Shown here in pieces: positions 24,654 to 50,913 of a stretch of 64,000 bases of DNA. The stretch spans positions 1 to 64,000 of IMG/VR virus record IMGVR_UViG_3300010885_081999; one strand, written 5' to 3'. Under the pieces are notes generated by a model that saw only the letters and a list, made by a program, of their open reading frames with translations, searched no databases and had not been told where the DNA came from. This stretch comes from a virus. The stretch's first letter is position 1. Each line of letters starts with the position of its first letter. The translations under genes were made by a program, and so were the position numbers.

Positions 24654-25406
24654 TCACAGTATGACTGCCCCGCCGACGACGGCCGCCTCAGTGAAAGACG
24701 AACCGTGAGTCCAGACCTTCTTGTTCCTGTCGACGACGCATGAGCCGCCCTTGAAACTGAGGTCTCTCTCCTTGCCTACTCTGTTGGACACTACGACGTT
24801 CGCAGAAGTCTCTTCTGCGAGTTCGACCCACGACGAATCAGGATAACCGTAATCGGAACCCCAATTGGTGAGAAGTGCTATCGTGTCGACAGACCCCTGC
24901 TTGTAGAAGCGTTGCTCCGATTTGTAGAATTTATACGTGTCCCTGTAGTTGTTCATCACGTCGCGGCAAATGAGCACGCCGAGGCGCCCAGCACGTGTGG
25001 TGACCACGGGATGCATCGATTCAGATGCCACGGACCAGAGGTTATCGGACCCCCACAAGTTGTGCTTCTGGCAGTTGGCGACGAGACCCGAGGGTCCGAC
25101 GACAGCAGCAGAGTTGTACAGCTTGCCTTCGCAGACTTCAACGTAGCCGAAGACGATGTGCGTGTTGAAGCGACGTGCGATGGGAAGGAAGGCTTCGGTC
25201 TGAAATCCTCCCTTCTGTTGTGCACAGTCGGCAGCCTCCCGCGAGTTCTCGAGGACGTAGCCGCTGGTGCACAGCTCTGGGAGGACCACCAGAGCTGCAC
25301 CTTTGCCTGCCGCCTCGAAAGCCATCTGTTGTGCAGTCTTCAAGTTGGCATACACGTCGTGTATCACCGGCTTGAACTGCACTGCTGCTACGATGGGTGT
25401 CTGCAT
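24654..25406 (-). CDS. Carbon-nitrogen hydrolase (nitrilase superfamily)
   Basis: E-K-C triad: VLPEL, QKHNL, LICRD; also YNSAAV and FKGGS. Confidence 0.88.
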   Translation of the reverse strand: MQTPIVAAVQFKPVIHDVYANLKTAQQMAFEAAGKGAALVVLPELCTSGYVLENSREAADCAQQKGGFQTEAFLPIARRFNTHIVFGYVEVCEGKLYNSAAVVGPSGLVANCQKHNLWGSDNLWSVASESMHPVVTTRAGRLGVLICRDVMNNYRDTYKFYKSEQRFYKQGSVDTIALLTNWGSDYGYPDSSWVELAEETSANVVVSNRVGKERDLSFKGGSCVVDRNKKVWTHGSSFTEAAVVGGAVIL

Positions 25407-28148: not shown

Positions 28149-28723
28149 GCACCGCCTCCGCCGGCTGGGCCTGCGGCCGCGGCCTTCGGTGCCTGGAACT
28201 CCGTCTCGTCTTCCTTCTCAGACTGCGAGACTCCGATCTCGACGCCGTAGGACTCGAGTAGTTCCTCCTTGAACGTCTCCACTGCAGACTTGTCGTAGTT
28301 CTTTGCGAGGTAATTGGACGCCCTGCGGAGGATCGTGTTGCGGATCTCGAGGAGGTTGTCGTAGTTGTCGACGAGGCGCATCACGTCAGTGACGAAAGAT
28401 CCGACGTCGATGTCGTCGGAGGAGAGCTTCTCTGGCTCTGCGTCCTCCTTCTCCTCGTCTCCCTTCTCTTCGTCTTTGTCGTCCTCTTTCTCGTCTTCTT
28501 CCTCGTCAGCCTCGACGAGGAATCTCCTCGTCATCATACGAAAGTTGAGGCCTTCGTTCTTCGCATTCTTTGCCTCTGCCTCGTACTCCGACAGATACTT
28601 GTCGATCTGAGCATCGAGAGAGTCCTCACCCTTCTCTTTCTCAGGCTCAGCAGCCTCGACGATTCTTGAGGTGCTTCCTCTTCGAAGGGATCGAGCCAGC
28701 TCCTTCAGCAGGGAAGTCATCAC
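28145..28723 (-). CDS. Acidic hypothetical protein (putative head/core component)
   Basis: 192 aa; DSLDAQIDKYL; acidic tract after FLVE. Confidence 0.65.
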   Translation of the reverse strand: MMTSLLKELARSLRRGSTSRIVEAAEPEKEKGEDSLDAQIDKYLSEYEAEAKNAKNEGLNFRMMTRRFLVEADEEEDEKEDDKDEEKGDEEKEDAEPEKLSSDDIDVGSFVTDVMRLVDNYDNLLEIRNTILRRASNYLAKNYDKSAVETFKEELLESYGVEIGVSQSEKEDETEFQAPKAAAAGPAGGGGA

Positions 28724-29457
28724 TTCACCACCTGGGCCATCGCTTCTGCCTTCTTGAAGCGGTCCTCAATGACCGACCAGTTGAACTCTCTCATCTGCGA
28801 AATGAGGTAGGACTTGGGATCATTGAGATAGTCCTTGTAGTACGCGTGCTCCCACATGTCGACGACGACGAGGGGATAGAAGCCCATCGGGACGCTGCCT
28901 GCATGGTCGTCTATCATGAAGTTGACGTACTTCTTCAGGAAGAGGTGGTAGCCACAGACTGCCCAACCGCCACGTGATGCGAGGGCACACGCCATGAAAT
29001 CCCTCTGCCAGTCGTCGAACGTCCCGAAGTCACGCTGTAGCCTGAGGAAGGCGAGAGAATCCATCACCACCTCGCTGTGCGGATCGAAGCAGTTTGCGAA
29101 GTACAGCTCGTGGAGCCACACGGCGTTGAGGTTCCACGTCTCGTCGAGCTTCAGCGTCCTAAACTGAGAGTGGCGATGATTGACGTCCGATCTCTCTGCA
29201 GTGTCGAGCTCCGCCGACACCTTGTTGAGGGACTCGACGTAGTTCTTGTACTTCTCGATGTGCGCTGACTTCGTCTTCTGGGAGACGAATTCCGAGACCT
29301 GCTTGAACTGCTTCGGCTCGGCAACGTATGACTCGTTCAAAGACTCGTCGGAGGGTAGCTTCGCAGTCTCCTTGACGAGATGTGACTGGATGGTTCTCTT
29401 GATGATACCGTCGACGTCGATGCCGGCGAGAGGATGCTTCTTGTCAATCGATTTCAT
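28720..29457 (-). CDS. Fe/Mn superoxide dismutase family protein with N-terminal extension
   Basis: AHIEKY, LHELYF, DFGTFDDW and VDMWEHAYY metal-ligand motifs. Confidence 0.85.
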   Translation of the reverse strand: MKSIDKKHPLAGIDVDGIIKRTIQSHLVKETAKLPSDESLNESYVAEPKQFKQVSEFVSQKTKSAHIEKYKNYVESLNKVSAELDTAERSDVNHRHSQFRTLKLDETWNLNAVWLHELYFANCFDPHSEVVMDSLAFLRLQRDFGTFDDWQRDFMACALASRGGWAVCGYHLFLKKYVNFMIDDHAGSVPMGFYPLVVVDMWEHAYYKDYLNDPKSYLISQMREFNWSVIEDRFKKAEAMAQVVK

Positions 29458-30742: not shown

Positions 30743-31699
30743 TCACATGTCCTTGATCTTGTCCCAAGACTTCTCATACCACTCGATGGTTCGATCGAGT
30801 CCGTCCCAAAACCGAACAAGCGGAACGTAACCGAGAACCGCTGTGGTCTTCGATATGTCTGCCTGTGTGTGCATCACGTCTCCAGCACGCCACGGAGCTG
30901 TGTGGTGCTGGGCATAAGGATAGACTTCCTGGAGTTTTCCGAGCACCTCTGCGTTTGATGTCCTGTCGCCGCAGGCCACGTTGAGAGGTTCTGCGGCCAA
31001 TGGACCGACGTGCTCGACTGCTCTCATGCAAGCATCGACGACGTTGTCGACGTAGCACATGTCCCGTGTCTGCGAGCCGTCTCCGTCCGATCGCATGGAG
31101 TCGCCCTTCTTGATCGCAGTCAACCATGCCGAGACCGCGGTCGAATAAGGCGAATTTCCTAGCTGATTGGGTCCGAAGACGTTGAAGAAGCGAAGGGCGA
31201 CGGAATCAAGACCGTAGAGGTTGTAGTAGACCTTCATGTAGTCTTCGATGATCGACTTCTGGAGTGCGTAAGGTGACTTTGGATCCTTGGGATACGTCGT
31301 CGGAGTCGGCATGAAGTCTGCACCGCCATATACAGAACTCGATGATGCGAAGACGAACCGTCTCGCGTTGCCGCGGCAGGCCTGCATGAGGCGCAACGTC
31401 TTCGTCACATTCGTCTCGTGTGTCTCAAGAGGAAACTCCACGGAATAGCTCACACGAGGCACAGCGGCCAAGTGAACGACGGCGTCGAATTGCCCTGAGA
31501 CGACAGCATGAAGCACGTTCGGTGCCGAGAAGTCGCTTACCAGGAAGTTGTCTGATTCGACGAATCGAGAGTCGAGAAACTCTTCGTGGCCGTTGCTCAT
31601 GTCGTCCACGCCGAAGACATCCCAGCCTGATTCGAGGCATTTCTTCGTCAGGTTGCTGCCGATGAATCCCGCAGCACCTGTGATGAGAACCTTAGTCAT
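30743..31699 (-). CDS. NAD-dependent NDP-sugar epimerase/dehydratase
   Basis: TGAAGFIG, ASSSSVYG, YALQK and FNVFGP. Confidence 0.92.
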   Translation of the reverse strand: MTKVLITGAAGFIGSNLTKKCLESGWDVFGVDDMSNGHEEFLDSRFVESDNFLVSDFSAPNVLHAVVSGQFDAVVHLAAVPRVSYSVEFPLETHETNVTKTLRLMQACRGNARRFVFASSSSVYGGADFMPTPTTYPKDPKSPYALQKSIIEDYMKVYYNLYGLDSVALRFFNVFGPNQLGNSPYSTAVSAWLTAIKKGDSMRSDGDGSQTRDMCYVDNVVDACMRAVEHVGPLAAEPLNVACGDRTSNAEVLGKLQEVYPYAQHHTAPWRAGDVMHTQADISKTTAVLGYVPLVRFWDGLDRTIEWYEKSWDKIKDM

Positions 31700-32517: not shown

Positions 32518-33513
32518 TCACTTCTTCCAGAAGTCATACATTCCCTTGGCGACCTCGTATTTCATCATCTTGACGGGACGTGGCGGCTGCTCCTTCGCCC
32601 AGACGAACATCTTCTCGACGAGGTCCTCAAAGTCTGTGTCGTCTACGAATCCCAGGTCTCTCTTCGCCTTTGTGTGGTCGCAGTAGGCGTGCTGCACCTC
32701 GTCACGAGGCTCGAGGTGGACTATCGCCACGTCGTGTCCCAATTTGGCCGCGACGCGTCGGAATCGAGAAGCCGCATCGGCGATCGTCATGTGTGAATCG
32801 GCACCCATGTTGTACGTCTCACCGTCGCCGGCATTCATCAAGGTCTCAAAGGGCGCCATGTAGTACTTGATGTCTGAGAACGACCGCGTCTGTGAGCCAT
32901 CACCGAAGACTGTGATGGGCTGACCCGACAATGTCTGTCTAATCCAGATGCCTAACACATTCCTGTATTTGTCCCAGATATTCTGGTGTACTCCAAAGAC
33001 GTTGTGCGGACGCACGACAGTGTAGTTGAGACCGAAGAGCCTGTGGGCCTGCTTCAGGTCCAACTCCACAGCATACTTTGCGATGCCGTAGGGATCTTCA
33101 GGCATCGGCACAAAGTCCTCGACGTAGGGCGGGTGATGATGGCTTCCGTAGACGTCCATGGACGACGTGAAGACAATCTTCTTCGAGTCGTGATTGACGC
33201 ACGCATTGATCACGTTTGCAGACCCCACCACGTTGTTCGAGTAGTTGAAGCTCCTGATGAAGGGACTGAGCCCCACCGCAGCATAGGCAGCGAAGTGATA
33301 GACGTACTGGGGTCTTCGTGTCCGAAATGCCTCGTCGACCGCGGACGAATCGACGAGGTTCACCTCCAAGAAATCGAGTCGTTCGTCGAGGTTCTCTCTA
33401 TAACCACCACTCAAGTCGTCGATGCCCGTCACCGTGTGACCGCGGTCGAGAAGGTGTCTCGAGAAATGACTTCCTAGTAGGCCTGCCACGCCTGTGATCA
33501 ATACACTCGCCAT
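32518..33513 (-). CDS. NAD-dependent NDP-sugar epimerase/dehydratase
   Basis: TGVAGLLG, TSSMDVYG, YGIAK and HNVFG. Confidence 0.92.
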   Translation of the reverse strand: MASVLITGVAGLLGSHFSRHLLDRGHTVTGIDDLSGGYRENLDERLDFLEVNLVDSSAVDEAFRTRRPQYVYHFAAYAAVGLSPFIRSFNYSNNVVGSANVINACVNHDSKKIVFTSSMDVYGSHHHPPYVEDFVPMPEDPYGIAKYAVELDLKQAHRLFGLNYTVVRPHNVFGVHQNIWDKYRNVLGIWIRQTLSGQPITVFGDGSQTRSFSDIKYYMAPFETLMNAGDGETYNMGADSHMTIADAASRFRRVAAKLGHDVAIVHLEPRDEVQHAYCDHTKAKRDLGFVDDTDFEDLVEKMFVWAKEQPPRPVKMMKYEVAKGMYDFWKK

Positions 33514-33522
33514 GATCCAGCA

Positions 33523-34428
33523 TTATACAGCATCACGACGCACGTGGAGGCTGTCGAACTGAACGACGAGTCTCACTGAGTTGACAGCCCAGCCGAAGGT
33601 CCGAGGAATTTCGGTGGAAAGGTGGGCAAGGAATCGAAGGTCGAGTGTACCGTTCTTCACGGAGTCCGTGCTCCTCAGAAGACTGATGACCTTGAGGTCG
33701 CCATCACGAGGCAAGAAGTGTATCGAAGAGATGCACGTGTCGCTGTGGTAGTAGAACCGCCTCGAGTCGAGTCCTTGTGGCGCTCCATAGGGATTTTTCC
33801 CTGACATCTCGTCGTGGATCACTTCCTCGCACGACTTGAGGATGTCCAAGAAGTACTCGCCTTCGTGGGGATCGTTGAGGATGGAGGGATCCGTGTACTG
33901 AGGTGGGACGTCGAACTCCACGCGTGCCTGCACCTCTTGGTCCTTTGACAGGAAAGTACAGTGTCTAATCGTGTGACCAAACACCCCCGGAGATTGTTCC
34001 GAATATTCCTGGATGTCCCTGCTGACTTCTCGTGCCTGGTCCGACAGGGAAGCGTCCCTCGAGAGGACGAGGACGTTGGGAAGTGCGATGATCTTCGAGA
34101 CCTCTTCCTGGAAGATCCTGTAGAGTTTCAAGAGCGAAGCGTCGTCCTGGAACTCGTCGCCTCGTGAGCGTAGTCTCTCGAGGACGACGTTGACAGGAGG
34201 CATCAGGACGACGAGGAAGTTGTTGAGATCACAGAGCTCTTCGCGGAGGGCAGCTCGATGCTCCGCCTCAGGCCGTCCGTAGAGACGCGCATAGCACAGC
34301 ATCGAGAGGAAGGACCGGTCTTGAATGTTGTACTTGAACTTCGTTTCCTTGTGCAGGGCTGAATAGAGCGAAGTCTTGCCGCTGCAGTCCGGTCCCTCTA
34401 GAATGACGTATTTGATCGGAATGTTCAT
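33523..34428 (-). CDS. NMP kinase fused to a thymidylate-synthase/dCMP-hydroxymethylase-like domain
   Basis: N-terminal EGPDCSGKT and DRSFLS; C-terminal SRR...CISSIHF...LRSTDSVKNGTLD...DSLHV. Confidence 0.7.
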   Translation of the reverse strand: MNIPIKYVILEGPDCSGKTSLYSALHKETKFKYNIQDRSFLSMLCYARLYGRPEAEHRAALREELCDLNNFLVVLMPPVNVVLERLRSRGDEFQDDASLLKLYRIFQEEVSKIIALPNVLVLSRDASLSDQAREVSRDIQEYSEQSPGVFGHTIRHCTFLSKDQEVQARVEFDVPPQYTDPSILNDPHEGEYFLDILKSCEEVIHDEMSGKNPYGAPQGLDSRRFYYHSDTCISSIHFLPRDGDLKVISLLRSTDSVKNGTLDLRFLAHLSTEIPRTFGWAVNSVRLVVQFDSLHVRRDAV

Positions 34429-36752
34429 GCCATCTGCCTCATCTTGAAGATCGAAGTCGAGAAGCCCCACTGAGGATCGTGTTGTGCCTTGCCTACCCAC
34501 AGGGTGTAGGGTTTGATCTCCTCCTGCGGCGTGCCCCATACTCGAATCCACGCGATCCTAAACTCGTCGTCCATCGCTTTACAACGATAGAACGACTTTC
34601 CGTTCTTCGTCTTCTTCAGCTCGGCGGACGCCATGCAGAACCAGCCGATGCCCTCCGTGCCCGGCGGGATGTCGTGGAGGCGAGGCACTTCCTTCGACGC
34701 GACCTTCTCCATGATCTCGGGTGGAAAGAGGAGGTCTGCGTCGATCGTGGACGTGAGGTCGAAGCGTAGGTTGATCTTCTCGTCACGAGTCCAGTCCTCC
34801 GTTTCTGCGAGCTCCTCGAGGAGGAAGTCGACGATGGGAATCACGGGTTCACCGGCCTTCGCCTTCTTCTTCAGTTGCGATGCAGTGAGACCGTAGAGGC
34901 CCTTTCGGAGGGTCTCGTAGTTCTTTTCCTCGGTGAGTGCGAGGAGGAGCTGCCGATGATTCGCGATGCGGCCGTACTGGAAGTCCTCGAGGGACTCTAG
35001 GCCTTCGATCTGACACAGGGCGGAGAGCACCGTCTTGTTCACCTTGCTGTGTCTCCATTCGCCGGCGTCGTCGTACAGCATCCCCTTGAGGTCCTTATAC
35101 GGTCGGTTGACCATGATCTCCTCGACGGCGGCGTTTCCGATGCCCTTCACCGAACCGAGGGGCGGAACGAAGGCGTTGGCCTCGTCGGAGAAGTCCCACT
35201 GCTTGCCCGAGTAGTTGACGTCGTGCTTCGAGAAGCTGTATCCCAATGCCTTCACCTCGGAGATCACCTTGGAGAGCTCCTTGGGATTGGACGAGGCAGA
35301 CTGCAGGATCGTGGCGAGCCAGTCCTTCTCGTAGTGGGTGTGGAGCCATGCCGCGTAGTAGGAGTCGATGGCATAGGACACGGAGTGGGACTTGTTGAAG
35401 CCGTAGAGCGAGAAGAACTCGATCTTGTCGAACAGCGCATTGGTGATGTCTTCCGAGATTCCGTGGATTTCTTTGGCGCCCTTCACGAACTTCTCGCGGA
35501 GCATCACCTTCTCGCCCGACTTCTTGTCGAGTGTGTCGAGTGACTTCTTCACGAGCGTCTTCCTCATCTGGTCGGACTCGCCCGGTGAGAAACCGCCGAG
35601 CTCCACGGCGAGGCTCATGAACTGTTCCTGGAAGGCGATGAAGCCGCGGGTCACACCGAGCACCTTCTCGATGAGCGGATGGTCGTACTTGATGCCCTCG
35701 ATGTTCTTACCGGCGTCGACGTACATATTGTGGACGTTCGCCTTGAGGGGACCGGGTCGGTAGATGGCAGTGATCGCCGCGAGCTCGTCGATCGTGTTGG
35801 GCTTCGCCTGCATGCAGAACTTCCGGGCTCCGCTGGCAGTGAACTGGAAGACGCCGACGAAGCGACCTTCCTGGTACACGTGCTTCCACACCGCGGGGTC
35901 GTCCTGCTTCACGTATCGACAGTTGAGGTGCTTGTCGAAGAACGCCTTGACGTCGAGGAACGTCGGATCGGGATTGCCCTGCTTCACGAGGATGCGTCGG
36001 ATGCAGTTCTCGACGTCCTTGAGGAGGGTGAGTCCCAGGAAGTCGAACTTGAGGAAGCCGTTGTCCTCGAGGTTGCGGAAGTTCATGCCCTCGGTCCACG
36101 GAGTCTGAAGCTCGCCGCGGACGCCGATGATGGGCATCGTGGCGGACAACTCCTCGGGATCGGCGACGAGGACGCCGCCGGCGTGACGGCCCACGGATCG
36201 GTTCTGCATGAAGAGCGTGCTGATGTGGTCCTCGACCTCCGGGTACTTCTCCATGAAGGCCTTGTACTTCGGAGAGAACCTCATACAGTCCTCGTGCTTC
36301 AGGACGAAGACGGACTTCTCCTGGTCCTCGTCCCGGGCGAGAGGCTCGACCTCCGCTTGGAGCGGGCCTGTCACCTCATTCACCTCCTCGAACGGAATGC
36401 CGTAGATTTTTGAGATGTCCTTGACGAGGGACTTCAGCTTCAGGGTGTTGAAGTTGGACACGGGAATGACCGCGTCCTCACCGAAGAGATTTCGAGCTTC
36501 CTCGATCAACACGTCTCGATCTGCAGCATCAGAGTCGATATCGGGCCACGAAGTATTGTGTGTCAGTGCAAAGTCCTTGCCTACTGTTGACACAAAAAAC
36601 GTATGATCATTAGCAACCTCGATGTCGACGTATTCTTCAGCTTTGTCGCTAAAGATGACTTCTTCGATCTCTACTTCTTCAAACTCGAGAGTTGACAACA
36701 AGATTTTTTGTTCCTTTGTAGTTTCTGAATTCGAGATTTGGAATGACATCAA
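34425..36752 (-). CDS. dnaE: DNA polymerase III alpha, C-terminal fragment preceded by split-intein IntC (likely TTG start about 36701)
   Basis: YVDIEV..DHTFFV...THN then TSWPDIDSD, GRHAGG, KFDFLGL, YRPGP and YGFNKSHS. Confidence 0.92.
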   Translation of the reverse strand: MMSFQISNSETTKEQKILLSTLEFEEVEIEEVIFSDKAEEYVDIEVANDHTFFVSTVGKDFALTHNTSWPDIDSDAADRDVLIEEARNLFGEDAVIPVSNFNTLKLKSLVKDISKIYGIPFEEVNEVTGPLQAEVEPLARDEDQEKSVFVLKHEDCMRFSPKYKAFMEKYPEVEDHISTLFMQNRSVGRHAGGVLVADPEELSATMPIIGVRGELQTPWTEGMNFRNLEDNGFLKFDFLGLTLLKDVENCIRRILVKQGNPDPTFLDVKAFFDKHLNCRYVKQDDPAVWKHVYQEGRFVGVFQFTASGARKFCMQAKPNTIDELAAITAIYRPGPLKANVHNMYVDAGKNIEGIKYDHPLIEKVLGVTRGFIAFQEQFMSLAVELGGFSPGESDQMRKTLVKKSLDTLDKKSGEKVMLREKFVKGAKEIHGISEDITNALFDKIEFFSLYGFNKSHSVSYAIDSYYAAWLHTHYEKDWLATILQSASSNPKELSKVISEVKALGYSFSKHDVNYSGKQWDFSDEANAFVPPLGSVKGIGNAAVEEIMVNRPYKDLKGMLYDDAGEWRHSKVNKTVLSALCQIEGLESLEDFQYGRIANHRQLLLALTEEKNYETLRKGLYGLTASQLKKKAKAGEPVIPIVDFLLEELAETEDWTRDEKINLRFDLTSTIDADLLFPPEIMEKVASKEVPRLHDIPPGTEGIGWFCMASAELKKTKNGKSFYRCKAMDDEFRIAWIRVWGTPQEEIKPYTLWVGKAQHDPQWGFSTSIFKMRQMA

Positions 36753-37929
36753 ACAACTCCTGAGTCTTTAGGCTGTTATAGAAATCTTTCATATAGAGCA
36801 CACGAATGTTCAATCCGTCTGCCTTTAGCACTTCGAGAGCAAGCAAATTCTTCTCAAAGGCATGATCTCTTCTTCCTGCTTTCAGCTCTACATACTCGTT
36901 AGTATCTGGATGAAAGAAGTCCGGTGTGTAGCTTACTTCTGTTTCAGCGACTTTTACGGAGAAGGTCTTGTGTTCGTAATGAACTTCAATTCCTACATGA
37001 TTGCAGTAACGAAAGTAGTCAGCCTCGAGCGAACTTCTGAAGTAGATTCCTAAGTCAGAACGAACGCCAGATCGACCCCTAGAATAGAGTTTGATCTCTC
37101 CGCTTGATTGAGCTGCATACTGACACTTGCGTCCACAAAATCTTACCACAGACGTAGTGTACTTTTCAAAATTACTACCGCAGACTTTACATGGGACTAT
37201 CACTCTTGTTGCAGTTCGACTTGCATCCCTGGCACATGGGAGTGAACAGTATTTACGGTTGCTGCCTTCGATTACTTCGAAATTTGCGCCACATGAACTG
37301 CAAATCAGAGTGACGCGCTCTTTTTCGCTTGACTTAGCATACGACCGATTTTGGCATGCTCTCGAGCAATACTTCGATTGTTTCGCTAAACTGGGCGGTA
37401 ACGTGTAGTCTCTTTCACAGTAGTTGCACTTGAGCGTCATTGATGAAATTGACTTTTCTCTCCTTTTTGCACCTTTGCATTCTTTCGAGCAGTACTTCTT
37501 GTTGCAAGAACTGAAGCCTCCCTGTGTATGGGTGAAGGTGACAACGAAGTCCTTGTTGCAATGTTTGCATGTGAGAGATTTCGTGCTTGTGTTTCCCATG
37601 AATCTTCTCCGTTATGATTCACTGGGATACGTATCATGTCACGGAGACTTCTTCTTGACGAAGAGCAGCTTGTCGCCCTTCTTGAGGTCGGTCGTCATAA
37701 CTTCTTTCACTTCGCCAGCGCGACGGACGAGCCAGCGATGGTTTGGCGAGCATGAGAAATTCTCTCTCGAAGTCTTGATGACAGCATTGATGTCATGTCC
37801 TACATCATCTTCCTTGTCGATGACAGACTCATAAGTACCGCCATGCGTGAGGACCTTCTCTCCAAGGCCGAGGTCTTTGATGGGCTTGACTCCATTTTCT
37901 GTCAAGACAAGTGAGTCTTTCTGAAGACA
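36555..37929 (-). mobile_element. Split intein (IntN 37639-37929, IntC about 36555-36701) plus intervening endonuclease
   Basis: IntN begins CLQKDSLV with block B CSPNHRW; IntC ends HN/T; whole segment is lower in GC than the dnaE exteins. Confidence 0.88.
36679..37599 (-). CDS. Free-standing homing endonuclease: CxxC/YCSxxC Zn repeats + PD-(D/E)xK nuclease
   Basis: Four CxxC...(Y/F)CxxxC repeats; FRSSLE...YTPDF...YVELK. Confidence 0.8.
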   Translation of the reverse strand: MGNTSTKSLTCKHCNKDFVVTFTHTQGGFSSCNKKYCSKECKGAKRREKSISSMTLKCNYCERDYTLPPSLAKQSKYCSRACQNRSYAKSSEKERVTLICSSCGANFEVIEGSNRKYCSLPCARDASRTATRVIVPCKVCGSNFEKYTTSVVRFCGRKCQYAAQSSGEIKLYSRGRSGVRSDLGIYFRSSLEADYFRYCNHVGIEVHYEHKTFSVKVAETEVSYTPDFFHPDTNEYVELKAGRRDHAFEKNLLALEVLKADGLNIRVLYMKDFYNSLKTQELFDVIPNLEFRNYKGTKNLVVNSRV

Positions 37930-39405
37930 ACGGTGCCGACCGAGGAATCGGCTCCACAGGAGACCGTACGGAATCGGATCGATCTGGGTGATGCCGAGGA
38001 GGTAGTTGACGAGAGAACCGGGACCGCTGCCACGTCCGGGTCCGAAGAGGGTCCGCGTCTCGGCACGCTTGAAGATCTTGTACATTGTCACGAAGTACGA
38101 GGCATGACCCAGGTACTTGATGTCGGACAGCTCGGACTTCGCTCGTTCGACGTACTCGGGCTTGTCCACCATTCCCTCGCGGACGAGTCCCTCCTTGACG
38201 AGGTCGGTGAGCTGCTGGAATGCGGTCCTCTCAGGAGTGTCGAGCTTCGGGAGCTTCGCCTTGACATCGACCCAGGTGTCCTCGCAGTTCTGCCAAGCGA
38301 GGTCGTGGGTCCGCTCGATCGCGTCGCGGACCTCCTCCTCAGCACCTCGGTAGAAGTCGTAGGAGTCGTACGACGACTTGAACTCGTCCCACATCTGGGT
38401 GGCGTTCTTGGGATACAGCTCGCACTTCAGGTCCTCGAACTTGGGCAGCGCCGTCTGATCCAGCTTCGCACCCATCCAGCCGAGCTTCTTGTAGAGCTCG
38501 CGGGCCTGCCATTTGGAGGGATCGGGATAGTGGGCATCGCAGGTGGCGATCAGCTTCACGCCGCTTCGTCGAGACAGGTCGATGAGGTACTTGTTCACCA
38601 CGTGCTGCTTCGGCAGCTTGTTGAACTGTAGCTCGAGGAAGAAGTTGTCACGACCGACCGCGTCGGTGAACCTGTCGGTGAGGTTCTGCAGCTCACTGAT
38701 GATCTGATCGGATGTCTTACCGTACGCCTCGCCGCGGAGGATCGTGCCGCTGTAGATGCCGCCGAGGCACGCCGTCGACCAGATGATGCCCTTACCCCAC
38801 TTTCGGAGGAGGTCGAAGTCGATGCGAGGATAGCGGTAGAAGCCGTCCTTGAAAGACGCCTTCACGAGGCGGTTGATGTTCGCGAGACCCTCGGCTGTCT
38901 GGGCGACCGCGACGAGGTGGTATCGACGCTGCCAGTCGGGCTTCTCCTTGTAGTCGTCCGACTTGGTCTCTGCCTCGTCCTCGACGACGTGGCCTCCCGC
39001 CTCCTCTTCCTCTGCGACCTCGTCTGCGTCGACGTCCGTCCGGACCTTCGCCTTCTTCTCAGCTTCGGCCGCGGTCTTCGCGTCCTTGATCGACTGCTTG
39101 TGTGCTTCGTAGTCGAGCTTCCACTGTGCGAGCGAAGTAACAAAGTAGAACTCCACGCCGTAGAGCTGTCTGTACTTCACGCCCTTCTTCTGCAGCTTCT
39201 TTGCCGCAGAATGTGCATGGGCGAGACCGTTGCCGTTGCCGTGGTCGGTGAGGGCCCACGCGTCCTGCCCTTGCGACTCGGAGGTCACGAACTTCACGTG
39301 ATCCTCGGGATACCCGAGGCCGTCGAATGTCGAAAATCCGCTGTGATTGTGGAAGGAAACGAACTTCTGGGGAGGGCGAATCAGATCGACGGGACGATTT
39401 GACAT
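37639..39405 (-). CDS. dnaE: DNA polymerase III alpha, N-terminal fragment (PHP domain) fused to split-intein IntN
   Basis: HNHSGFSTFDG, TDHG, CDAHY, GPGRGS, LLGITQIDP and LLWSRFL, then a 96-aa IntN. Confidence 0.92.
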   Translation of the reverse strand: MSNRPVDLIRPPQKFVSFHNHSGFSTFDGLGYPEDHVKFVTSESQGQDAWALTDHGNGNGLAHAHSAAKKLQKKGVKYRQLYGVEFYFVTSLAQWKLDYEAHKQSIKDAKTAAEAEKKAKVRTDVDADEVAEEEEAGGHVVEDEAETKSDDYKEKPDWQRRYHLVAVAQTAEGLANINRLVKASFKDGFYRYPRIDFDLLRKWGKGIIWSTACLGGIYSGTILRGEAYGKTSDQIISELQNLTDRFTDAVGRDNFFLELQFNKLPKQHVVNKYLIDLSRRSGVKLIATCDAHYPDPSKWQARELYKKLGWMGAKLDQTALPKFEDLKCELYPKNATQMWDEFKSSYDSYDFYRGAEEEVRDAIERTHDLAWQNCEDTWVDVKAKLPKLDTPERTAFQQLTDLVKEGLVREGMVDKPEYVERAKSELSDIKYLGHASYFVTMYKIFKRAETRTLFGPGRGSGPGSLVNYLLGITQIDPIPYGLLWSRFLGRHRCLQKDSLVLTENGVKPIKDLGLGEKVLTHGGTYESVIDKEDDVGHDINAVIKTSRENFSCSPNHRWLVRRAGEVKEVMTTDLKKGDKLLFVKKKSP

Positions 39406-40160: not shown

Positions 40161-41153
40161 TCAGGCCGGAAAGTGCTGCAGCAGGTCCACTTTCTTTGCG
40201 GCTGCCTCGTCGAGGTACTTCAGCGGGTTGTAGTCCTCGGATCCCCTGATCCACTCCAGGGTCTCTCGAATACCCTGCGACAAATCAAGTTCTGGTTTCC
40301 ACCCAAGCTTTTCCCTGATTTTCTGAGAGGACAATCGGTGGTTACCGAGGTAGTCCGTCTTGGGATGCCACACCAGCCGTCCGCTCGTGCCAGGGAGGTG
40401 GGCATCGACTTCGGACACGACCTCGGACGCGGGACGGGCAGTCTCCGCCGCAACGTTCCAGTCGGTTCCCCATCCCTGACCCATGGGATCTCGGCACACG
40501 ACCTCGATCGCCTTGCAGAAGTCCGACACGTGGAGGTAGTCCTTCACCTTGGTGGGATCGAGGAACATGTCGATCGAAGGTCGACCTTTCAGGGAGGCAT
40601 AGATCGACTTCGCGATGAGGGAGTTCATGTCACCGAGACCTCCGAAGGCGAAGAGGGGACGCACGATCGTCCATCGATTCGCCATCGCGGTGACGATCTG
40701 CTCGGCCGCGAGCTTCTGGACGCCGTAATATGTCCGCGGGCACTTGTCAGAGGCTTCCGTGATCCACTCGTCCTGGTATTTCGGAGTATCGTAGATCACC
40801 GTCGTGCCGAGGTAGCAGACAGCCGCCTTGGCCCTGTTCGCAGCCCGGACGATGTTGTAGGTGCCTTGCACGTTGGAAAGCACAGCTTCCTGAGGATCGA
40901 GCGCGACGACGTCTGTACCTACGACGGCCGCATTGTGCACGACGACGTCGATGTCGTTACCGTAGAGAACGTTGTACCATGCATCTTCTGAGTTCTGCCA
41001 GATGCATGCCTCCCCCGTCTTCGGAACCTTCTTGGGTTCTGCTGCGTCGGAGAAGAGCTCACCGTCAGTGACGACCTCGTGCTTACGAGACTCGAGGACG
41101 ACCTTGAGGTTGCGTGAGATCAGCCCGTTTTGGCCCGTGATGTAGAACTTCAT
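40161..41153 (-). CDS. Divergent NAD-dependent NDP-sugar epimerase/dehydratase
   Basis: ITGQNGLIS, HNAA, YGVQK and DYLHVSD; start MKFYITG. Confidence 0.85.
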   Translation of the reverse strand: MKFYITGQNGLISRNLKVVLESRKHEVVTDGELFSDAAEPKKVPKTGEACIWQNSEDAWYNVLYGNDIDVVVHNAAVVGTDVVALDPQEAVLSNVQGTYNIVRAANRAKAAVCYLGTTVIYDTPKYQDEWITEASDKCPRTYYGVQKLAAEQIVTAMANRWTIVRPLFAFGGLGDMNSLIAKSIYASLKGRPSIDMFLDPTKVKDYLHVSDFCKAIEVVCRDPMGQGWGTDWNVAAETARPASEVVSEVDAHLPGTSGRLVWHPKTDYLGNHRLSSQKIREKLGWKPELDLSQGIRETLEWIRGSEDYNPLKYLDEAAAKKVDLLQHFPA

Positions 41154-41170
41154 TGTACCTCCATCATAAA

Positions 41171-41206
41171 CGGCTCGGGCGGCCATTTTCACAGCCGCCC
41201 GAGCCG
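41171..41206. promoter_or_regulatory. 13-bp inverted repeat overlapping the epimerase promoter
   Basis: CGGCTCGGGCGGC-N10-GCCGCCCGAGCCG. Confidence 0.55.
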
Positions 41207-41214
41207 AAGCTATC

Positions 41215-41670
41215 TCACTCAATTTCCTTGTCGTACGGTTCGTAGAGCATCTTTCCTGCGGCCTTGCTGCGATCGAGATAATCCTCGAGCTCTTCGAATG
41301 AAGTACACACGCGTGCACCTGATCTACTCAACATGAGGTTGAATTTTGCTCCAGCTGGGAGTCCGGCGCAGAAGTAGATGATGTGCTTGTCGAAGGCTGT
41401 TGCATATCCGCACTCCATGATAGTGCCCAAGTCCTTATCGCGAGTGTTGACGACAAGGAAGTCAGATTCGCGGATGTGTTTCAAATTACCCTGATAAGTC
41501 GCATCCTGAACCTCACGGGAAGCATTTGGTGGGCAAATGAAGATTCGTCGTGGAGACGCCATGTCAATCCAGTCCTTACGTGCCTCCATGATTTGTTCGA
41601 GTCTGGTGAGCTCGGCGTCTTGAACGGGGTTGAACCAGCCTGCGGCGAGGTACATCTTTTTGCGATTCAT
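41215..41670 (-). CDS. Nucleoside 2'-deoxyribosyltransferase / nucleotide N-glycosidase (NDT/MilB/Rcl family)
   Basis: YLAAGWF, SPR, DLGTIMECGYA and NLML. Confidence 0.8.
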   Translation of the reverse strand: MNRKKMYLAAGWFNPVQDAELTRLEQIMEARKDWIDMASPRRIFICPPNASREVQDATYQGNLKHIRESDFLVVNTRDKDLGTIMECGYATAFDKHIIYFCAGLPAGAKFNLMLSRSGARVCTSFEELEDYLDRSKAAGKMLYEPYDKEIE

Positions 41671-42717: not shown

Positions 42718-43701
42718 TTACTTACCTACCTTCCAATCGTTGTGCTGCCTCTTGATGGCATTCCAGTCTGTCATGTCTGCGTTCCACAGCTCGGTGAATC
42801 GCTTCTGTGGTCCGTTGCCGTGGGTGCCGTTGATGTCCTCGCGGGTCGACTGATAGATCGTGTCCTGTGGATGGAACTCGAACGTGTCGTTCTTCGGGAT
42901 GGGCCAGTAGAGGTTCGTGCCTCGCGACACGAACTTGTCACCTTCCTTGACGCGGAAGGTCTTGATGTAGTGCATGTCGGGCTTGTTGAAGTCGATCACG
43001 GACGTGAACTCGGGGATCACCTTCGCCACCTCGACTGCCATGCGAGACGCGAGGAGGTTGTCGGCAGCCGGCTGGATCTGGGTGTCCATTCGCTGGTAGA
43101 TGAAGCCGATGAGCTCCTTGAGTGGGAGGCGCATGTAGTAGAACGACGTCATGCACTTCGGGAGGATGAGTCGGGCATCCATCATCGACACGACCTTCGA
43201 ATCCGTCATGTCGGCATAGAGCTGCTTCGAGTCCTCGACGAGCTTCTTCCATCGAGCGTGGAACTCAGGAGAGTTCTGGACGGGCTCGGGAATCACAGCG
43301 TCGTCGTCTCGGAGGTCACGGTCGCCCGTGCACTGGGCGGCGAAGGTGCCGGCACGATGGCGGATGATGTGTGTCACCTCCTGAAACGAGAGGCCGCTGA
43401 GACGGAAAGTGAAGCCGAGGCACTCCATGGGAGCGGGAAGCGTGCGGCCGCCGAACACGTCCTCGAGGTTCTTCGACAGCTCACGCTGGGTGACGCCGCT
43501 GGTGGGATCGATGTCCGGGCGGTCTGCCCACGTCGCCTTGACGTAGTGCCACGCGACGTTCCAGGCCTGCTGACGCGTGGGAGCGTCGACTAGCTCCACC
43601 TTGAGGGCATCGAGGTTGTTGTGGAACTGGGTCTTCGGTTCTTGACCGAACTTGAGGACCATGGGAAGCTCAATGGGTTGAAGATCACGATTGATGGGCA
43701 T
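42718..43701 (-). CDS. Divergent ThyX-fold (flavin-dependent) protein
   Basis: FTFRLSGLS...HIIRHRAGTFAAQCTGDR and DARLILP; canonical ESxRY replaced. Confidence 0.75.
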   Translation of the reverse strand: MPINRDLQPIELPMVLKFGQEPKTQFHNNLDALKVELVDAPTRQQAWNVAWHYVKATWADRPDIDPTSGVTQRELSKNLEDVFGGRTLPAPMECLGFTFRLSGLSFQEVTHIIRHRAGTFAAQCTGDRDLRDDDAVIPEPVQNSPEFHARWKKLVEDSKQLYADMTDSKVVSMMDARLILPKCMTSFYYMRLPLKELIGFIYQRMDTQIQPAADNLLASRMAVEVAKVIPEFTSVIDFNKPDMHYIKTFRVKEGDKFVSRGTNLYWPIPKNDTFEFHPQDTIYQSTREDINGTHGNGPQKRFTELWNADMTDWNAIKRQHNDWKVGK

Positions 43702-43777: not shown

Positions 43778-44722
43778 TCAAATGACGTAATCGACGAAAC
43801 TGATGGGGTCGCTGCCCTCTGGGACATACACGACGTTCTTCATTCCCTCGACCTCGGCGTTGTAAGTCTTTTCGGGAACGATCACAGGCACTCCGTGTTT
43901 CGCGTATTCCGCTGCGTGCTTCGCAGAATCATCGACGGCGAAATACTTGCCGGTGGAGTAGTAGGGTTGGTCGGTGAGCCACACGTATTTCTCAGGCGTG
44001 AATGTCACGCCGTCGGCCGCGATGTCGTGCCTCGAAAGCCAGGAGTACGTGTCGTAGAAGGCGGTGAGATTGGAGGCAGGACGTGCAGTGACGATCTGGA
44101 TCCAGTATCCTCTGTCCTTGAGGTGCCTCAGGAGACCCGTGTACTTTTCGTTGCGTTCGAGCAGGAGAAATCCGTGTGTGTCGATGAAGGTCTTGAAGAG
44201 GACCTCGTTGTTGAGTCCGCTCTTCTTCAGTTCTTCTGTGGCATAATACTGTTTGCTCTTGGGATCGAGAAAGCAACCCGTCGTTTCGGTCACCCATCCA
44301 CAGAATGAAGACCTGAACTCGGCGAGGACGTCGTCCATGTCGAACAGGGCGACAGGCTGTCCGGCCCACTTCTTTGTGGAAAGCTCGTGCCTGTAGTGGA
44401 GGAAGTCGTCCTTCTGCGACAAGGCGGCCTCGAAAGTGGAGGCGCCGATTCCCCAGAGGTTCAACATCGCGAGGATGTAACGGTATGCGTCGACGGACTT
44501 GTAGAGTATCTTCTGCACGTCGACGGGATGCTTGACACCTCGATGATCCTTGTAGTTGACGCCCTCAACGATTCCGCTTGCTTCGGCGTGAAGTGCAAGA
44601 ACGAACGTCTTGAGAAGCTCTTGCTTCTGCCAGTCGTCCAGCTTCTCAGGATCGAAGAAGATGTCTGAGAAGGCCTTCTGACGCCCTAGGGCTTCGTGCA
44701 GCTTCGACCAGTCGTTCATCAA
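43778..44722 (-). CDS. All-alpha NTP-PPase-like domain fused to HAD 5'(3')-deoxyribonucleotidase-like domain
   Basis: N-terminal LALHAE...NYKDHR...VDAYRY; C-terminal FDMDDVL, IVTARP and VDDS. Confidence 0.7.
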   Translation of the reverse strand: MMNDWSKLHEALGRQKAFSDIFFDPEKLDDWQKQELLKTFVLALHAEASGIVEGVNYKDHRGVKHPVDVQKILYKSVDAYRYILAMLNLWGIGASTFEAALSQKDDFLHYRHELSTKKWAGQPVALFDMDDVLAEFRSSFCGWVTETTGCFLDPKSKQYYATEELKKSGLNNEVLFKTFIDTHGFLLLERNEKYTGLLRHLKDRGYWIQIVTARPASNLTAFYDTYSWLSRHDIAADGVTFTPEKYVWLTDQPYYSTGKYFAVDDSAKHAAEYAKHGVPVIVPEKTYNAEVEGMKNVVYVPEGSDPISFVDYVI

Positions 44723-45096: not shown

Positions 45097-45152
45097 GACT
45101 AAGTTCATCATACACATGGGTCAAACTGCAGTACAATCGATATTTACGGTAC

Positions 45153-50905: not shown

Positions 50906-50913
50906 GTCGTTAA

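What the first reader, a model, noticed from the sequence alone, without database searches (positions are those of the whole stretch)
33523..34428. NMP kinase fused to a stripped-down thymidylate-synthase domain with the dCMP-specifying Asp
Seen: the C-terminal third reads SRRFYY..TCISSIHF....L.....RSTDSVKNGTLD...DSLHV. Aligning RSTD to E. coli ThyA R166-S167-C168-D169 puts Asp at position 177. Known: ThyA has Asn177 there, while dCMP-acting enzymes such as T4 gp42 have Asp. The catalytic Cys appears retained, but the N-terminal folate-binding region seems absent. Inference: a folate-independent dCMP-modifying enzyme channelled to its own kinase, translationally coupled to dnaE-C.
Basis: partly seen in the sequence, partly recalled or inferred. 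Interest (0 to 1): 0.8.

Follow-up and report, generated by a model that had tools for sequence, protein, structure and literature searches.

The report
Phage kinase fused to mini thymidylate-synthase
An uncultured jumbo phage encodes, right after its DNA polymerase gene, a small nucleotide kinase fused to the smallest known thymidylate-synthase-type domain, whose active site is set up for cytosine; it probably makes and phosphorylates an altered C building block for phage DNA, but the chemistry is untested.

Summary
Window 33523-34428 (-) encodes a 301-aa protein. Residues 1-145 are a YorR/thymidylate-kinase-class P-loop kinase. Residues 146-301 fold confidently (pLDDT 95.7) as a stripped-down thymidylate-synthase (TS) fold.

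In a search of 48,161 solved chains, the seven best matches were all TS-superfamily enzymes (Z 8.9-10.9). Profile alignment to T4 dCMP hydroxymethylase (E 4e-8) matches the catalytic residues in register:
- Glu189, Arg223/Arg224, Cys232 and Arg252-Ser253
- Asp263 at the ThyA Asn177 site, which selects cytosine
- His295

There is no conserved Trp corresponding to W80/W83, and TS's C-terminal ~55 residues are missing.

The family is large (422 clusters at 50% identity), purely metagenomic, and absent from Pfam, PHROGs and cultured phages. It lies beside DnaE in 79 of 80 stretches (79 related loci plus the window), within a dCTPase-like/dCMP-deaminase/TK/ThyX island. A split form also exists.

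Best reading (about 0.5): a gp42+gp1-like bifunctional enzyme that modifies dCMP at C5 and phosphorylates the product. 5-hydroxylation, as in RB69 gp48/AfhB, is the leading guess. The diagnostic D169N position is Asp here and toggles D/E/N across the family, so the substituent and cofactor remain open.

The scan has already reported this family on three other genomes.

The parts
33523..34428 (-). Whole gene (301 codons + stop): kinase / mini-TS fusion, P0001
   Evidence: 379 full-length homologues. AF2 model of the full protein: pLDDT 94.9, pTM 0.90.
33994..34428 (-). N-terminal P-loop kinase domain (residues 1-145), YorR / thymidylate-kinase / deoxynucleoside-kinase class
   Evidence: Structural matches: YorR 3kb2 Z 14.3 (140 aa, rmsd 2.8), M. 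mycoides dAK Z 13.4, S. aureus TMK Z 12.4. The A1 profile hits YorR at E 4e-11. phrog_761 'thymidylate kinase' at 1.4e-14. Pfam TMK scores only 17.7 bits, below its cut-off of 27.
34372..34395 (-). P-loop GPDCSGKT (residues 12-19)
   Evidence: Asp14, Gly17 and Lys18 are each 79/80 conserved.
34312..34320 (-). DRS motif (residues 37-39), equivalent to the DR(Y/F) motif of thymidylate kinases
   Evidence: Asp37 is 79/80 and Arg38 80/80 conserved.
34156..34176 (-). LID-type motif RLRSRGD (residues 85-91)
   Evidence: Arg85, Arg89, Gly90 and Asp91 are each 80/80 conserved. The motif aligns with YorR RLRVRGDE.
33526..33993 (-). C-terminal minimal TS-fold domain (residues 146-301, 156 aa)
   Evidence: The domain alone models at pLDDT 95.7. 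Structural search: 9iqc Z 10.9, Brucella ThyA 10.5, MilA 9.8, T4 dCH 8.9; next unrelated hit 6.0. Foldseek top hit 9iqu, E 1.1e-6. hhalign results.
33862..33864 (-). Glu189, equivalent to T4 dCH Glu60 / ThyA Glu58
   Evidence: Global hhalign to T4 gp42, probability 86%. 79/80 conserved.
33787..33810 (-). Family-specific loop E-x-x-G-x-N-x-Y (residues 207-214), replacing the long W80...Y94 segment of ThyA
   Evidence: The role of this loop is unknown.
33757..33762 (-). Arg223-Arg224, equivalent to ThyA R126/R127 (phosphate-binding pair, donated across the dimer in TS)
   Evidence: 79/80 conserved.
33733..33735 (-). Cys232, equivalent to ThyA C146 / T4 C148 (nucleophile)
   Evidence: 79/80 conserved.
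33664..33675 (-). R252-S253-T254-D255, equivalent to ThyA R166-S167-C168-D169
   Evidence: Position 255 is N in 44, D in 22 and E in 14 of 80. It switches at least 5-8 times on the family tree.
33640..33642 (-). Asp263 at the ThyA Asn177 / T4 Asp179 position (cytosine-type)
   Evidence: 80/80 conserved.
33544..33546 (-). His295, equivalent to ThyA H207 / T4 H216. The protein ends 6 residues later.
   Evidence: 79/80 conserved. Most relatives end 1-3 residues after this His.
34425..34428 (-). ATGA overlap of the dnaE-C stop codon and the start codon of this gene
   Evidence: DnaE is directly upstream in 33 of 80 stretches (79 related loci plus the window) and within three ORFs in 68 of 80.

Best explanation
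The gene encodes a bifunctional nucleotide enzyme. Functionally it is the counterpart of T4 gp42 + gp1, or of RB69 gp48 + its dNMP kinase, joined in one 301-aa chain.

Proposed mechanism:
1. The 156-aa TS-fold domain binds a cytosine deoxynucleotide (dCMP). Arg252/Ser253 and Arg223/Arg224 hold the phosphate. Asp263 reads N3/N4 of cytosine.
2. Cys232 adds to C6, and the Glu189 network handles proton transfers. C5 thereby becomes a nucleophile and receives a non-methyl substituent.
3. The fused YorR/TMK-class kinase phosphorylates the modified dNMP to the diphosphate. After host NDP kinase, it reaches the DnaE polymerase encoded immediately upstream.

The leading guess for the substituent is a hydroxyl delivered by a flavin hydroperoxide, as in the 5-hydroxy-dCMP synthases RB69 gp48 / HY126 AfhB. 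Hydroxymethyl is second.

Shown here: the two folds, the register and conservation of the catalytic residues, the loss of the Trp-bearing segment and of the C-terminal tail, and the gene context.

Inferred: the substrate, that catalysis occurs, the cofactor and substituent, the order of the two reactions, and incorporation into DNA.
For: Fold and homology. The C-domain is a TS fold: the top seven of 48,161 chains are all TS-superfamily enzymes, Z 8.9-10.9. It is homologous by profile to T4 dCMP hydroxymethylase (E 4.1e-8).

Catalytic residues. Glu189, Arg223/224, Cys232, Arg252/Ser253, Asp263 and His295 are kept in 79-80 of 80 family members spanning 24-66% identity. A decayed binding module would not be expected to keep them.

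Cytosine-type signatures.
- Asp at the N177 site is the known dCMP-versus-dUMP determinant (Hardy & Nalivaika 1992; Liu & Santi 1992; as cited in PMC13326640).
- The residues before the Cys are polar or acidic (S229-D230; position 229 is D in 41 of 80). Hydroxymethylases and hydroxylases carry an acidic residue (D/E) at the equivalent L143 position, whereas ThyA has Leu143.
- An Arg nine residues after the Cys (Arg241, 80/80) is shared with T4 gp42, RB69 gp48 and P0270, but not with ThyA.

Closest structures. The best hits are the flavin-dependent dCMP hydroxylase 9iqc/9iqu. That protein is about 99% identical to RB69 gp48. Like gp48, this family ends soon after the S-A/L-H-V/I strand.

Autonomy of the parts. 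Stand-alone mini-TS proteins exist. In locus L086, the mini-TS and a 157-aa YorR-like kinase are separate genes in one operon (hhalign 96.8% to the N-domain).

Context matches the T4 logic:
- a gp56-like dCTPase/dUTPase-family gene (44719-45117)
- dCMP deaminase and TK
- NT5C
- DnaE

Ordinary dTMP supply is covered separately by ThyX + Tmk at 56124-57400. No ThyA-family gene is detectable in this record or in five large relatives.
Against: No biochemical evidence exists for any member of the family.

The C-domain is not detected by the Pfam TS model even at E 10. A family profile also fails to detect PDB TS sequences, so the domain is far more diverged than gp48 is from ThyA (gp48 hits ThyA at 1e-12).

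The D169N signature used to recognise 5-hydroxy-dCMP synthases (PMC13326640) is not met in this protein, which has Asp255. The position toggles D/E/N among close orthologues, so it neither supports nor excludes hydroxylation.

Structural scores for the hydroxylase and for folate-dependent ThyA are tied (Z 10.9 versus 10.5).

The domain is about 60-80 residues smaller than gp48, so a flavin site is not assured.

The ThyA Arg21 equivalent is not evident.

The kinase cannot be assigned to NMP versus nucleoside acceptors (dAK Z 13.4 versus TMK Z 12.4).

In locus L086 a second, larger cytosine-type TS homologue sits beside the mini-TS. The mini-TS therefore need not be the primary C5-modifying enzyme.

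Two complete relatives lack a recognisable Tmk. This fits a general dNMP-kinase role for the kinase domain.
Confidence: 0.5

Rival explanations
1. A general phage dNMP (or deoxynucleoside) kinase. Its TS-derived domain only binds dCMP or another nucleotide, as a substrate-capture or allosteric module, and does no C5 chemistry.
For: Public sources annotate the family only as a kinase.

The gene is a core neighbour of DnaE inside a salvage island of TK, NT5C, NDT, a DHH phosphoesterase and dCMP deaminase.

Two complete relatives (284 and 239.5 kb) have ThyX but no Pfam-detectable Tmk. The fused kinase may therefore be their only dNMP kinase.

The usual cofactor-binding parts of TS are missing.
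Against: The Cys nucleophile, the Glu58 equivalent and His are kept in 79/80, and the Asp in 80/80, of sequences down to 24% identity.

The domain also exists as a stand-alone protein and as a separate gene from the kinase.
Confidence: 0.17
2. A classical folate-dependent enzyme: a dCMP hydroxymethylase (T4 gp42-like) or dCMP methylase fused to its kinase. Methylene-tetrahydrofolate would bind in a reduced site.
For: The best profile match is T4 gp42 (94.9%, E 4.1e-8; global alignment 86%).

This protein keeps Asp255, the equivalent of ThyA D169 / T4 D171. From textbook knowledge, that residue hydrogen-bonds the pterin.

36 of 80 relatives have D or E at this position.
Against: No conserved Trp replaces W80/W83, and residues 190-222 contain no Trp at all.

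The C-terminal ~55 residues that close over folate in ThyA are absent.

44 of 80 orthologues carry Asn at position 255, and the residue flips among close relatives.
Confidence: 0.13
3. The order is reversed, or the chemistry is different. In the first version, the kinase is a deoxycytidine kinase that feeds dCMP to the TS-like domain. In the second, the domain uses Cys-C6 addition for another outcome, such as deamination or C5-H exchange. In a third, it works with the co-conserved divergent ThyX-like flavoprotein or the NDT-family protein in a MilA/MilB-like route to a free modified base.
For: The kinase matches deoxynucleoside kinases as well as it matches TMKs. Some members carry precomputed dNK Pfam hits.

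A divergent ~330-aa ThyX-like gene is present in the window and in 5 of 5 large relatives.

An NDT-family gene (41215-41670) is in the island in 32 of 80 stretches (79 related loci plus the window).
Against: A zinc dCMP deaminase is already encoded next door in 65 of 80 stretches (79 related loci plus the window).

No test here links the ThyX-like or NDT genes to this protein beyond co-occurrence.
Confidence: 0.12

Closest known systems
Flavin-dependent 5-hydroxy-dCMP synthases (RB69 gp48, DLP3 gp80, HY126 AfhB; PDB 9iqc/9iqu; Lee et al. 2026 NAR, PMC13326640; He et al. 2026 Nat Chem Biol, cited there but not held)
   Same: - TS fold; best structural neighbour (Z 10.9, 142 of 156 residues; Foldseek E 1.1e-6).
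- Cys nucleophile.
- Asp at the N177 site.
- Polar/acidic residues before the Cys.
- Arg nine residues after the Cys.
- The chain ends soon after the S-A-H strand.
- They work with a dNMP kinase to put the base into DNA.
- 44 of 80 relatives share the D169N signature.
   Different: - This protein has Asp, not Asn, at the D169 position.
- The domain is 156 aa against 217-238 aa.
- It is not detectable by TS sequence models, whereas gp48 hits ThyA at 1e-12.
- It is fused to the kinase.
- No arabinose or UDP-sugar activation genes of the RB69 type were seen.
- Flavin binding is untested.
T4 gp42 dCMP hydroxymethylase together with T4 gp1 dNMP kinase and gp56 dCTPase
   Same: - Best profile-profile match (94.9%, E 4.1e-8).
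- Equivalents of Glu60, Arg123/124, Cys148, Arg168-Ser169, Asp171, Asp179 and His216 are all present.
- The island also holds a gp56-like gene, a dCMP deaminase and a TK.
   Different: - 90 residues shorter.
- The Trp-bearing segment and the C-terminal 30 residues are absent.
- The kinase is YorR/TMK-like and is fused.
- Folate use is doubtful.
Bacillus subtilis SPbeta YorR (PDB 2axp/3kb2), an uncharacterised small P-loop kinase
   Same: Best match of the N-domain by sequence profile (E 4e-11) and by structure (Z 14.3, 140 residues). The P-loop EGPDC, the DR motif and the RxRGDE LID are shared.
   Different: YorR stands alone (173 aa) and has no TS-like domain. As far as I know, its substrate is unknown.
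E. coli ThyA thymidylate synthase (PF00303)
   Same: Same fold (Brucella ThyA Z 10.5). The SRR, Cys and R-S-x-D motifs are in register.
   Different: - Asp instead of Asn177.
- 108 residues shorter.
- No Pfam hit.
- dTMP synthesis in this phage is covered by ThyX.
MilA CMP hydroxymethylase (PDB 5jnh) with MilB N-glycosidase
   Same: TS fold (Z 9.8). Cytosine-type Asp. An NDT/MilB-family gene lies in the same island.
   Different: MilA is 318-342 aa, acts on CMP and belongs to an antibiotic pathway. The context here is deoxynucleotide metabolism and replication.

Membership tests
Thymidylate synthase / dCMP hydroxymethylase superfamily (fold level) | TS alpha/beta fold | tested here: met
   Model of the domain alone has pLDDT 95.7. 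The top seven of 48,161 chains are all TS-superfamily, Z 8.9-10.9 with 135-143 residues aligned; the next hit has Z 6.0.
Thymidylate synthase / dCMP hydroxymethylase superfamily (fold level) | Catalytic Cys, the Arg-Arg pair, the R-S-x-D motif and His, all in register | tested here: met
   hhalign. Conservation is 79-80 of 80.
Pfam PF00303 Thymidylat_synt (sequence family) | Score above the gathering threshold of 24.3 bits | tested here: not met
   No hit even at E 10. The genome-level PF00303 search also found nothing.
ThyA thymidylate synthase (dUMP to dTMP) | Asn at position 177 (uracil specificity) | tested here: not met
   Asp263 is aligned to N177 and is invariant, 80/80.
ThyA thymidylate synthase (dUMP to dTMP) | Folate-binding elements: W80/W83 segment and C-terminal tail | tested here: not met
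   No Trp occurs in residues 190-222, and the family has no conserved Trp. The chain ends 6 residues after His295, against 57 residues in ThyA.
5-hydroxy-dCMP synthase (RB69 gp48 / AfhB type) | N177D (cytosine substrate) | tested here: met
   Asp263.
5-hydroxy-dCMP synthase (RB69 gp48 / AfhB type) | D169N signature residue (PMC13326640) | tested here: not met
   Asp255 in this protein. Across the family the position is N 44, D 22, E 14 of 80, and it switches repeatedly on the tree.
5-hydroxy-dCMP synthase (RB69 gp48 / AfhB type) | Acidic residue at the L143 position | tested here: inconclusive
   The window has S229-D230 before Cys232; position 229 is D in 41 of 80. The exact register of this short loop is uncertain.
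5-hydroxy-dCMP synthase (RB69 gp48 / AfhB type) | Bound flavin and O2-dependent hydroxylation | not testable with these tools
   Needs protein spectroscopy and assays. The He et al. paper describing the flavin site is not held.
T4-type dCMP hydroxymethylase | Equivalents of Glu60, Cys148, Asp171 and Asp179 | tested here: met
   Glu189, Cys232, Asp255 and Asp263.
T4-type dCMP hydroxymethylase | Methylene-tetrahydrofolate use | not testable with these tools
   Only the absence of the ThyA-type folate elements could be shown.
Thymidylate kinase (PF02223) | Score above the gathering threshold of 27 bits and a full-length match | tested here: not met
   17.7 bits, matching only profile positions 84-175. 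A separate full-length Tmk lies at 56124-56717.
YorR-like small P-loop kinases | Sequence and structural similarity over the whole domain, including the P-loop, DR motif and LID | tested here: met
   Profile E 4e-11. Z 14.3 with 140 residues aligned.
TS obligate homodimer | Dimer that donates the Arg-Arg pair to the partner's active site | tested here: inconclusive
   The one complex job gave no verdict.

The most novel reading that the evidence does not exclude
The 156-aa domain is the smallest working TS-fold enzyme. It uses neither the canonical folate site nor the gp48-type flavin site.

Either alone, or together with the divergent ThyX-like flavoprotein that co-occurs with it in the window and in 5 of 5 large relatives, it installs a so far unknown C5 substituent on dCMP. 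A whole clade of abundant aquatic jumbo phages with DnaE polymerases would then carry an undescribed cytosine modification.

A bolder variant: the fused kinase phosphorylates the new C5 hydroxyl, as 5-HMUDK does on DNA, rather than the 5'-phosphate.
Probability: 0.15. Interest if true: 0.85.

Novelty: new variant of a known kind. Interest (0 to 1): 0.62.

Why it matters
If the reading is right, a large, uncultured clade of aquatic jumbo phages replaces or supplements cytosine with a modified base. The clade is represented by 422 protein clusters at 50% identity, on contigs up to 285 kb. The base would be made by an enzyme that current annotation sees only as a 'thymidylate kinase'.

That would matter in three ways:
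[quoted passage not shown] This shows which parts of the fold are needed to activate C5 of a pyrimidine.
- It would give a natural one-chain 'modify and phosphorylate' module, useful for making modified dNTPs in cells.
- It would warn that viromes from such phages may be biased in sequencing, restriction and CRISPR-targeting studies.

The prediction is directly testable with the published in vivo assay: express the gene in E. coli, then run LC-MS on plasmid nucleosides.

Tried and rejected
- **Dimer test.** A homodimer prediction of the C-domain (A2, two copies) gave no verdict: score 0.09 against a mark of 0.42. It is not used as evidence either way.
The contexts of most stand-alone forms could therefore not be fetched. 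The A3 alignment was too diverged for a locus scan. P0257 gave no viral locus. Only P0269 did (L086).
- **Cultured phages.** tblastn of the whole protein and of the C-domain against 50,697 phage records found nothing meaningful.
- **Family libraries.** No PHROG, Pfam or NCBIfam family covers the C-domain. A family profile against PDB sequences found only YorR, not TS.
- **Larger fusions.** None were found above 528 aa (weak evidence).
- **Glycosylation link.**
  - Pfam GT1, GT2 and GT1_4 searches found nothing in the 103.7-kb record, which is 32% complete.
  - Among five large relatives, SDR epimerases and GT1 genes co-vary (4 of 5 have both).
  - One complete 239.5-kb genome has neither, yet keeps the fusion.
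  - I therefore do not treat the flanking epimerases as part of this enzyme's pathway.
- **Using D169N versus D169 to assign chemistry.** Rejected, because the residue toggles D/E/N among close orthologues and no other C-domain position co-varies with it.
- **RB69 gp45 'thymidylate kinase'.** It shares only the P-loop with the N-domain.
- **Literature.** He et al. 2026 is not held. Searches found no description of a kinase/TS fusion.
Full report
**The gene.**
- Window 33523-34428 (minus strand) is an open frame of 301 codons (P0001).
- Its ATG overlaps the stop codon of the dnaE C-terminal gene as ATGA.
- A longer GTG start is possible, but homologues begin at the ATG.
- The window is part of a 103,725-bp IMG/VR virus record with an estimated completeness of 32%.
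- Large relatives are 200-285 kb, two of them complete, so this is a jumbo-phage lineage.
- It has no close cultured relative: DnaE is at most 31% identical to any deposited phage.

**N-terminal domain (residues 1-145).**
- Pfam gives only sub-threshold P-loop and thymidylate-kinase hits. PHROGs gives 'thymidylate kinase' phrog_761 at 1.4e-14.
- The nearest solved protein is the uncharacterised SPbeta protein YorR, by sequence profile (E 4e-11) and by structure (Z 14.3, 140 residues).
- Deoxynucleoside kinases (Z 13.4) and thymidylate kinases (Z 12.4) follow closely.
- The P-loop (GPDCSGKT), a DRS motif and an RxxxRGD LID are invariant or nearly so in 80 family members.
- The domain is therefore a small (deoxy)nucleotide or nucleoside kinase. 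The tools cannot tell which acceptor it uses.

**C-terminal domain (residues 146-301).**
- The full-length model is confident (pLDDT 94.9, pTM 0.90), and so is the domain alone (pLDDT 95.7).
- A search that does not depend on Foldseek, against 48,161 representative solved chains, returned TS-superfamily enzymes as the top seven hits:
  - flavin-dependent dCMP monooxygenase 9iqc, Z 10.9
  - Brucella ThyA, Z 10.5
  - MilA, Z 9.8
  - T4 dCMP hydroxymethylase, Z 8.9
- These hits align 135-143 of the 156 residues. The next hit, at Z 6.0, is unrelated.
- Foldseek agrees, with 9iqu on top at E 1.1e-6.

**Homology is also visible at the sequence-profile level.**
- The family alignment A2 matches T4 gp42 at 94.9% probability (E 4.1e-8), RB69 gp48 at 85.5% and E. 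coli ThyA at 62%.
- In all three, SRR falls on R126/R127, Cys232 on C146, R252-S253-T254-D255 on R166-S167-C168-D169, and Asp263 on N177.
- The T4 gp42 and RB69 gp48 alignments also place His295 on ThyA H207.
- A global alignment to T4 gp42 (86%) additionally puts Glu189 on T4 Glu60 / ThyA Glu58.

**What is missing relative to TS.**
- The domain is 108 residues shorter than E. coli ThyA.
- About 48 residues are lost before the SRR motif. The remaining stretch (190-222) has no Trp, and the family has no conserved Trp, so W80/W83 have no counterpart.
- 11 residues are lost between SRR and the Cys.
- The chain ends six residues after His295; most relatives end after one to three.
- A family-specific loop E-x-x-G-x-N-x-Y (207-214) replaces the long ThyA insert.
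- The N-terminal core elements of the fold are present. 'N-terminal region absent' is therefore only partly correct.

**The family.**
- A word-indexed search found 379 full-length homologues of about 300 aa. All are metagenomic, and sources annotate them at most as kinases.
- An exhaustive profile search with the C-domain found 422 clusters at 50% identity, 174 of them below 1e-10.
- Eighty viral loci were fetched; the fusion ORF was called in 79 of them, and with the window these make the 80 stretches counted below.
- Asp263 is kept in 80/80. Cys232, Arg223, Arg224, Arg252, Ser253, His295 and Glu189 are each kept in 79/80. Identity to the window protein falls as low as 24%.
- No Pfam, PHROG or NCBIfam model covers the domain. 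No deposited phage genome encodes it.

**The D169 position.**
- Lee et al. 2026 (PMC13326640) showed that RB69 gp48, DLP3 gp80 and diverse relatives are TS homologues that make 5-hydroxy-dCMP with a flavin. They proposed D169N, together with N177D and an acidic L143, as the recognisable signature.
- The solved structures 9iqc/9iqu are about 99% identical to RB69 gp48.
- In the present family the D169-equivalent position is Asn in 44, Asp in 22 and Glu in 14 of 80. The window protein has Asp.
- On a maximum-likelihood tree, the residue changes at least five to eight times. This includes changes between very close orthologues in identical synteny.
- No other C-domain position co-varies with it.
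- The signature therefore cannot assign chemistry inside this family. The Asp in the window copy is not evidence that it differs from its Asn-bearing relatives.

**Context.**
- In 79 of the 80 stretches a DnaE gene lies within the fetched region. It is directly upstream in 33 and within three ORFs in 68.
- The recurrent order is: [NT5C, divergent ThyX-like, NDT-family, SDR] - DnaE - fusion - [SDR] - TK - [DHH phosphoesterase] - dCMP deaminase - SOD-like.
- The 132-aa protein at 44719-45117 shares the C-terminal motif of T4 gp56 dCTPase/dUTPase (38% over 47 residues, pairwise E 2e-6).
- Canonical ThyX (56714-57400) and a full-length Tmk (56124-56717) sit together elsewhere in the window. dTMP and dTDP supply therefore does not need this gene.
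- No ThyA-family gene is detectable in this record or in five large relatives.
- The island thus contains analogues of T4 gp56, gp42, gp1, cd, tk and td.

**Autonomy of the parts.**
- Stand-alone mini-TS proteins of 165-200 aa, with their own start codons, exist.
- Viral locus L086 carries this operon: dCMP deaminase, a 214-aa cytosine-type TS homologue detectable by Pfam, a protein resembling FAD-dependent amine oxidases / UDP-galactopyranose mutases, the stand-alone mini-TS, a HAD/NT5C phosphatase, a 157-aa kinase homologous to the N-domain (96.8%), a dimeric-type dUTPase, and DnaE.
- This shows that the two halves fold and function as separate proteins and stay linked.
- It also shows that a mini-TS can coexist with a second TS-like enzyme, which cautions against assuming that it is the primary C5-modifying enzyme.

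**The flanking epimerases.**
- The three extended-SDR genes (30743-31699, 32518-33513, 40161-41318) are divergent NDP-sugar epimerase/dehydratase types. None reaches an equivalog cut-off.
- No GT1, GT2 or GT1_4 glycosyltransferase is detectable in the held record.
- Among five large relatives, SDR and GT1 genes co-vary: 4 of 5 have both. One complete 239.5-kb genome has neither but keeps the fusion.
- The sugar genes look like a separable module, so I do not count them as part of this enzyme's pathway.
- By contrast, the divergent ~330-aa ThyX-like gene is present in the window and in all five relatives.

**Interpretation.**
- The near-invariant nucleophile, general-acid Glu, phosphate-binding arginines and cytosine-reading Asp argue for a working enzyme that attacks C6 of a cytosine nucleotide.
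- The polar/acidic residues before the Cys, the loss of the folate-contacting elements, the gp48-like early chain end and the nearest structural neighbour favour a non-methyl, probably non-folate, C5 modification. Hydroxylation is the leading candidate.
- The fusion to a kinase, and the position next to the polymerase gene, fit delivery of the product to DNA synthesis.
- None of this is shown biochemically.
- I put about 0.5 on the bifunctional 'modify dCMP at C5 and phosphorylate it' reading. Within that, hydroxylation is roughly half.
- Rivals are: a plain dNMP kinase with a TS-derived binding module (0.17), a classical folate-dependent hydroxymethylase or methylase (0.13), and reversed order or other Cys-C6 chemistry, possibly with the ThyX-like or NDT partners (0.12).

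**Prior notes and tools.**
- The scan has already reported this family on three other genomes, with the same closest-known assignment. I re-derived the fold, the register and the synteny independently.
- New here are: the D/E/N toggling, the split operon, the gp56-like neighbour, the decoupling from the sugar genes, and the universal co-occurrence with the ThyX-like gene.

Noticed in passing
window 42718-43701 (-): A divergent ThyX-like protein of 327 aa (Pfam Thy1 1.9e-16; thyX equivalog only 32.5 bits against a cut-off of 87.9). A ~330-aa homologue is present in all five large relatives examined, alongside the canonical ThyX in four of them. It is therefore as conserved in this clade as the kinase/TS fusion.
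   Followed up: partly
window 44719-45117 (-): A 132-aa all-alpha dUTPase_2-family protein whose C-terminal motif matches T4 gp56 dCTPase/dUTPase (38% over 47 aa, E 2e-6). In some relatives (L028, L051, L079) it lies directly next to the fusion.
   Followed up: partly
L086:5832-13690: An operon in a 51-kb viral contig: dCMP deaminase, a 214-aa cytosine-type TS homologue (PF00303), an FAD amine-oxidase/UGM-like protein (P0271), a stand-alone mini-TS (P0269), a HAD/NT5C phosphatase, a 157-aa YorR-like kinase, a dimeric-type dUTPase, and DnaE. Two TS-like enzymes flank a putative flavoprotein with overlapping stop/start codons. P0271 homologues also occur in L078 and L081.
   Followed up: partly
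window 28720-29457 (-): A Fe/Mn superoxide-dismutase-like gene (Sod_Fe_C 7.9e-17), conserved near the nucleotide island in 52 of 80 stretches (79 related loci plus the window). This is an unusual phage gene. A link to oxygen-dependent nucleotide chemistry is only a thought.
   Followed up: no
window 34425-39405 (-): DnaE is split into two genes, with a 306-aa zinc-ribbon-rich ORF between them that has a weak Phage_endo_I hit (36679-37599). Many relatives have DnaE split at various places with different inserted ORFs (families f24, f62, f79 and the HNHins family in 15 loci).
   Followed up: no
window 30743-31699, 32518-33513, 40161-41318 (-): Three divergent extended-SDR NDP-sugar epimerase/dehydratase genes. 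In large relatives, SDR genes co-vary with clustered GT1 glycosyltransferases. Both are absent from one complete genome that keeps the fusion.
   Followed up: partly
window 43778-44722 (-) and 41215-41670 (-): An NT5C-type deoxyribonucleotidase with an unexplained ~120-aa N-terminal extension, and a nucleoside 2-deoxyribosyltransferase-family protein. Both recur upstream of DnaE in relatives.
   Followed up: no
related loci, e.g. L039:10034-10885: A DHH/DHHA1 phosphoesterase (NrnA-like) lies between TK and dCMP deaminase in 38 of 80 stretches (79 related loci plus the window), but is absent from the window's island. GMP reductase/IMPDH-family and trimeric dUTPase genes also sit next to the fusion in some lineages.
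   Followed up: no
window 50914-51963 (-), 24654-25406 (-), 49949-50992 (-): An N6/N4 DNA methyltransferase, a carbon-nitrogen hydrolase and an LD-carboxypeptidase are encoded in the same window.
   Followed up: no
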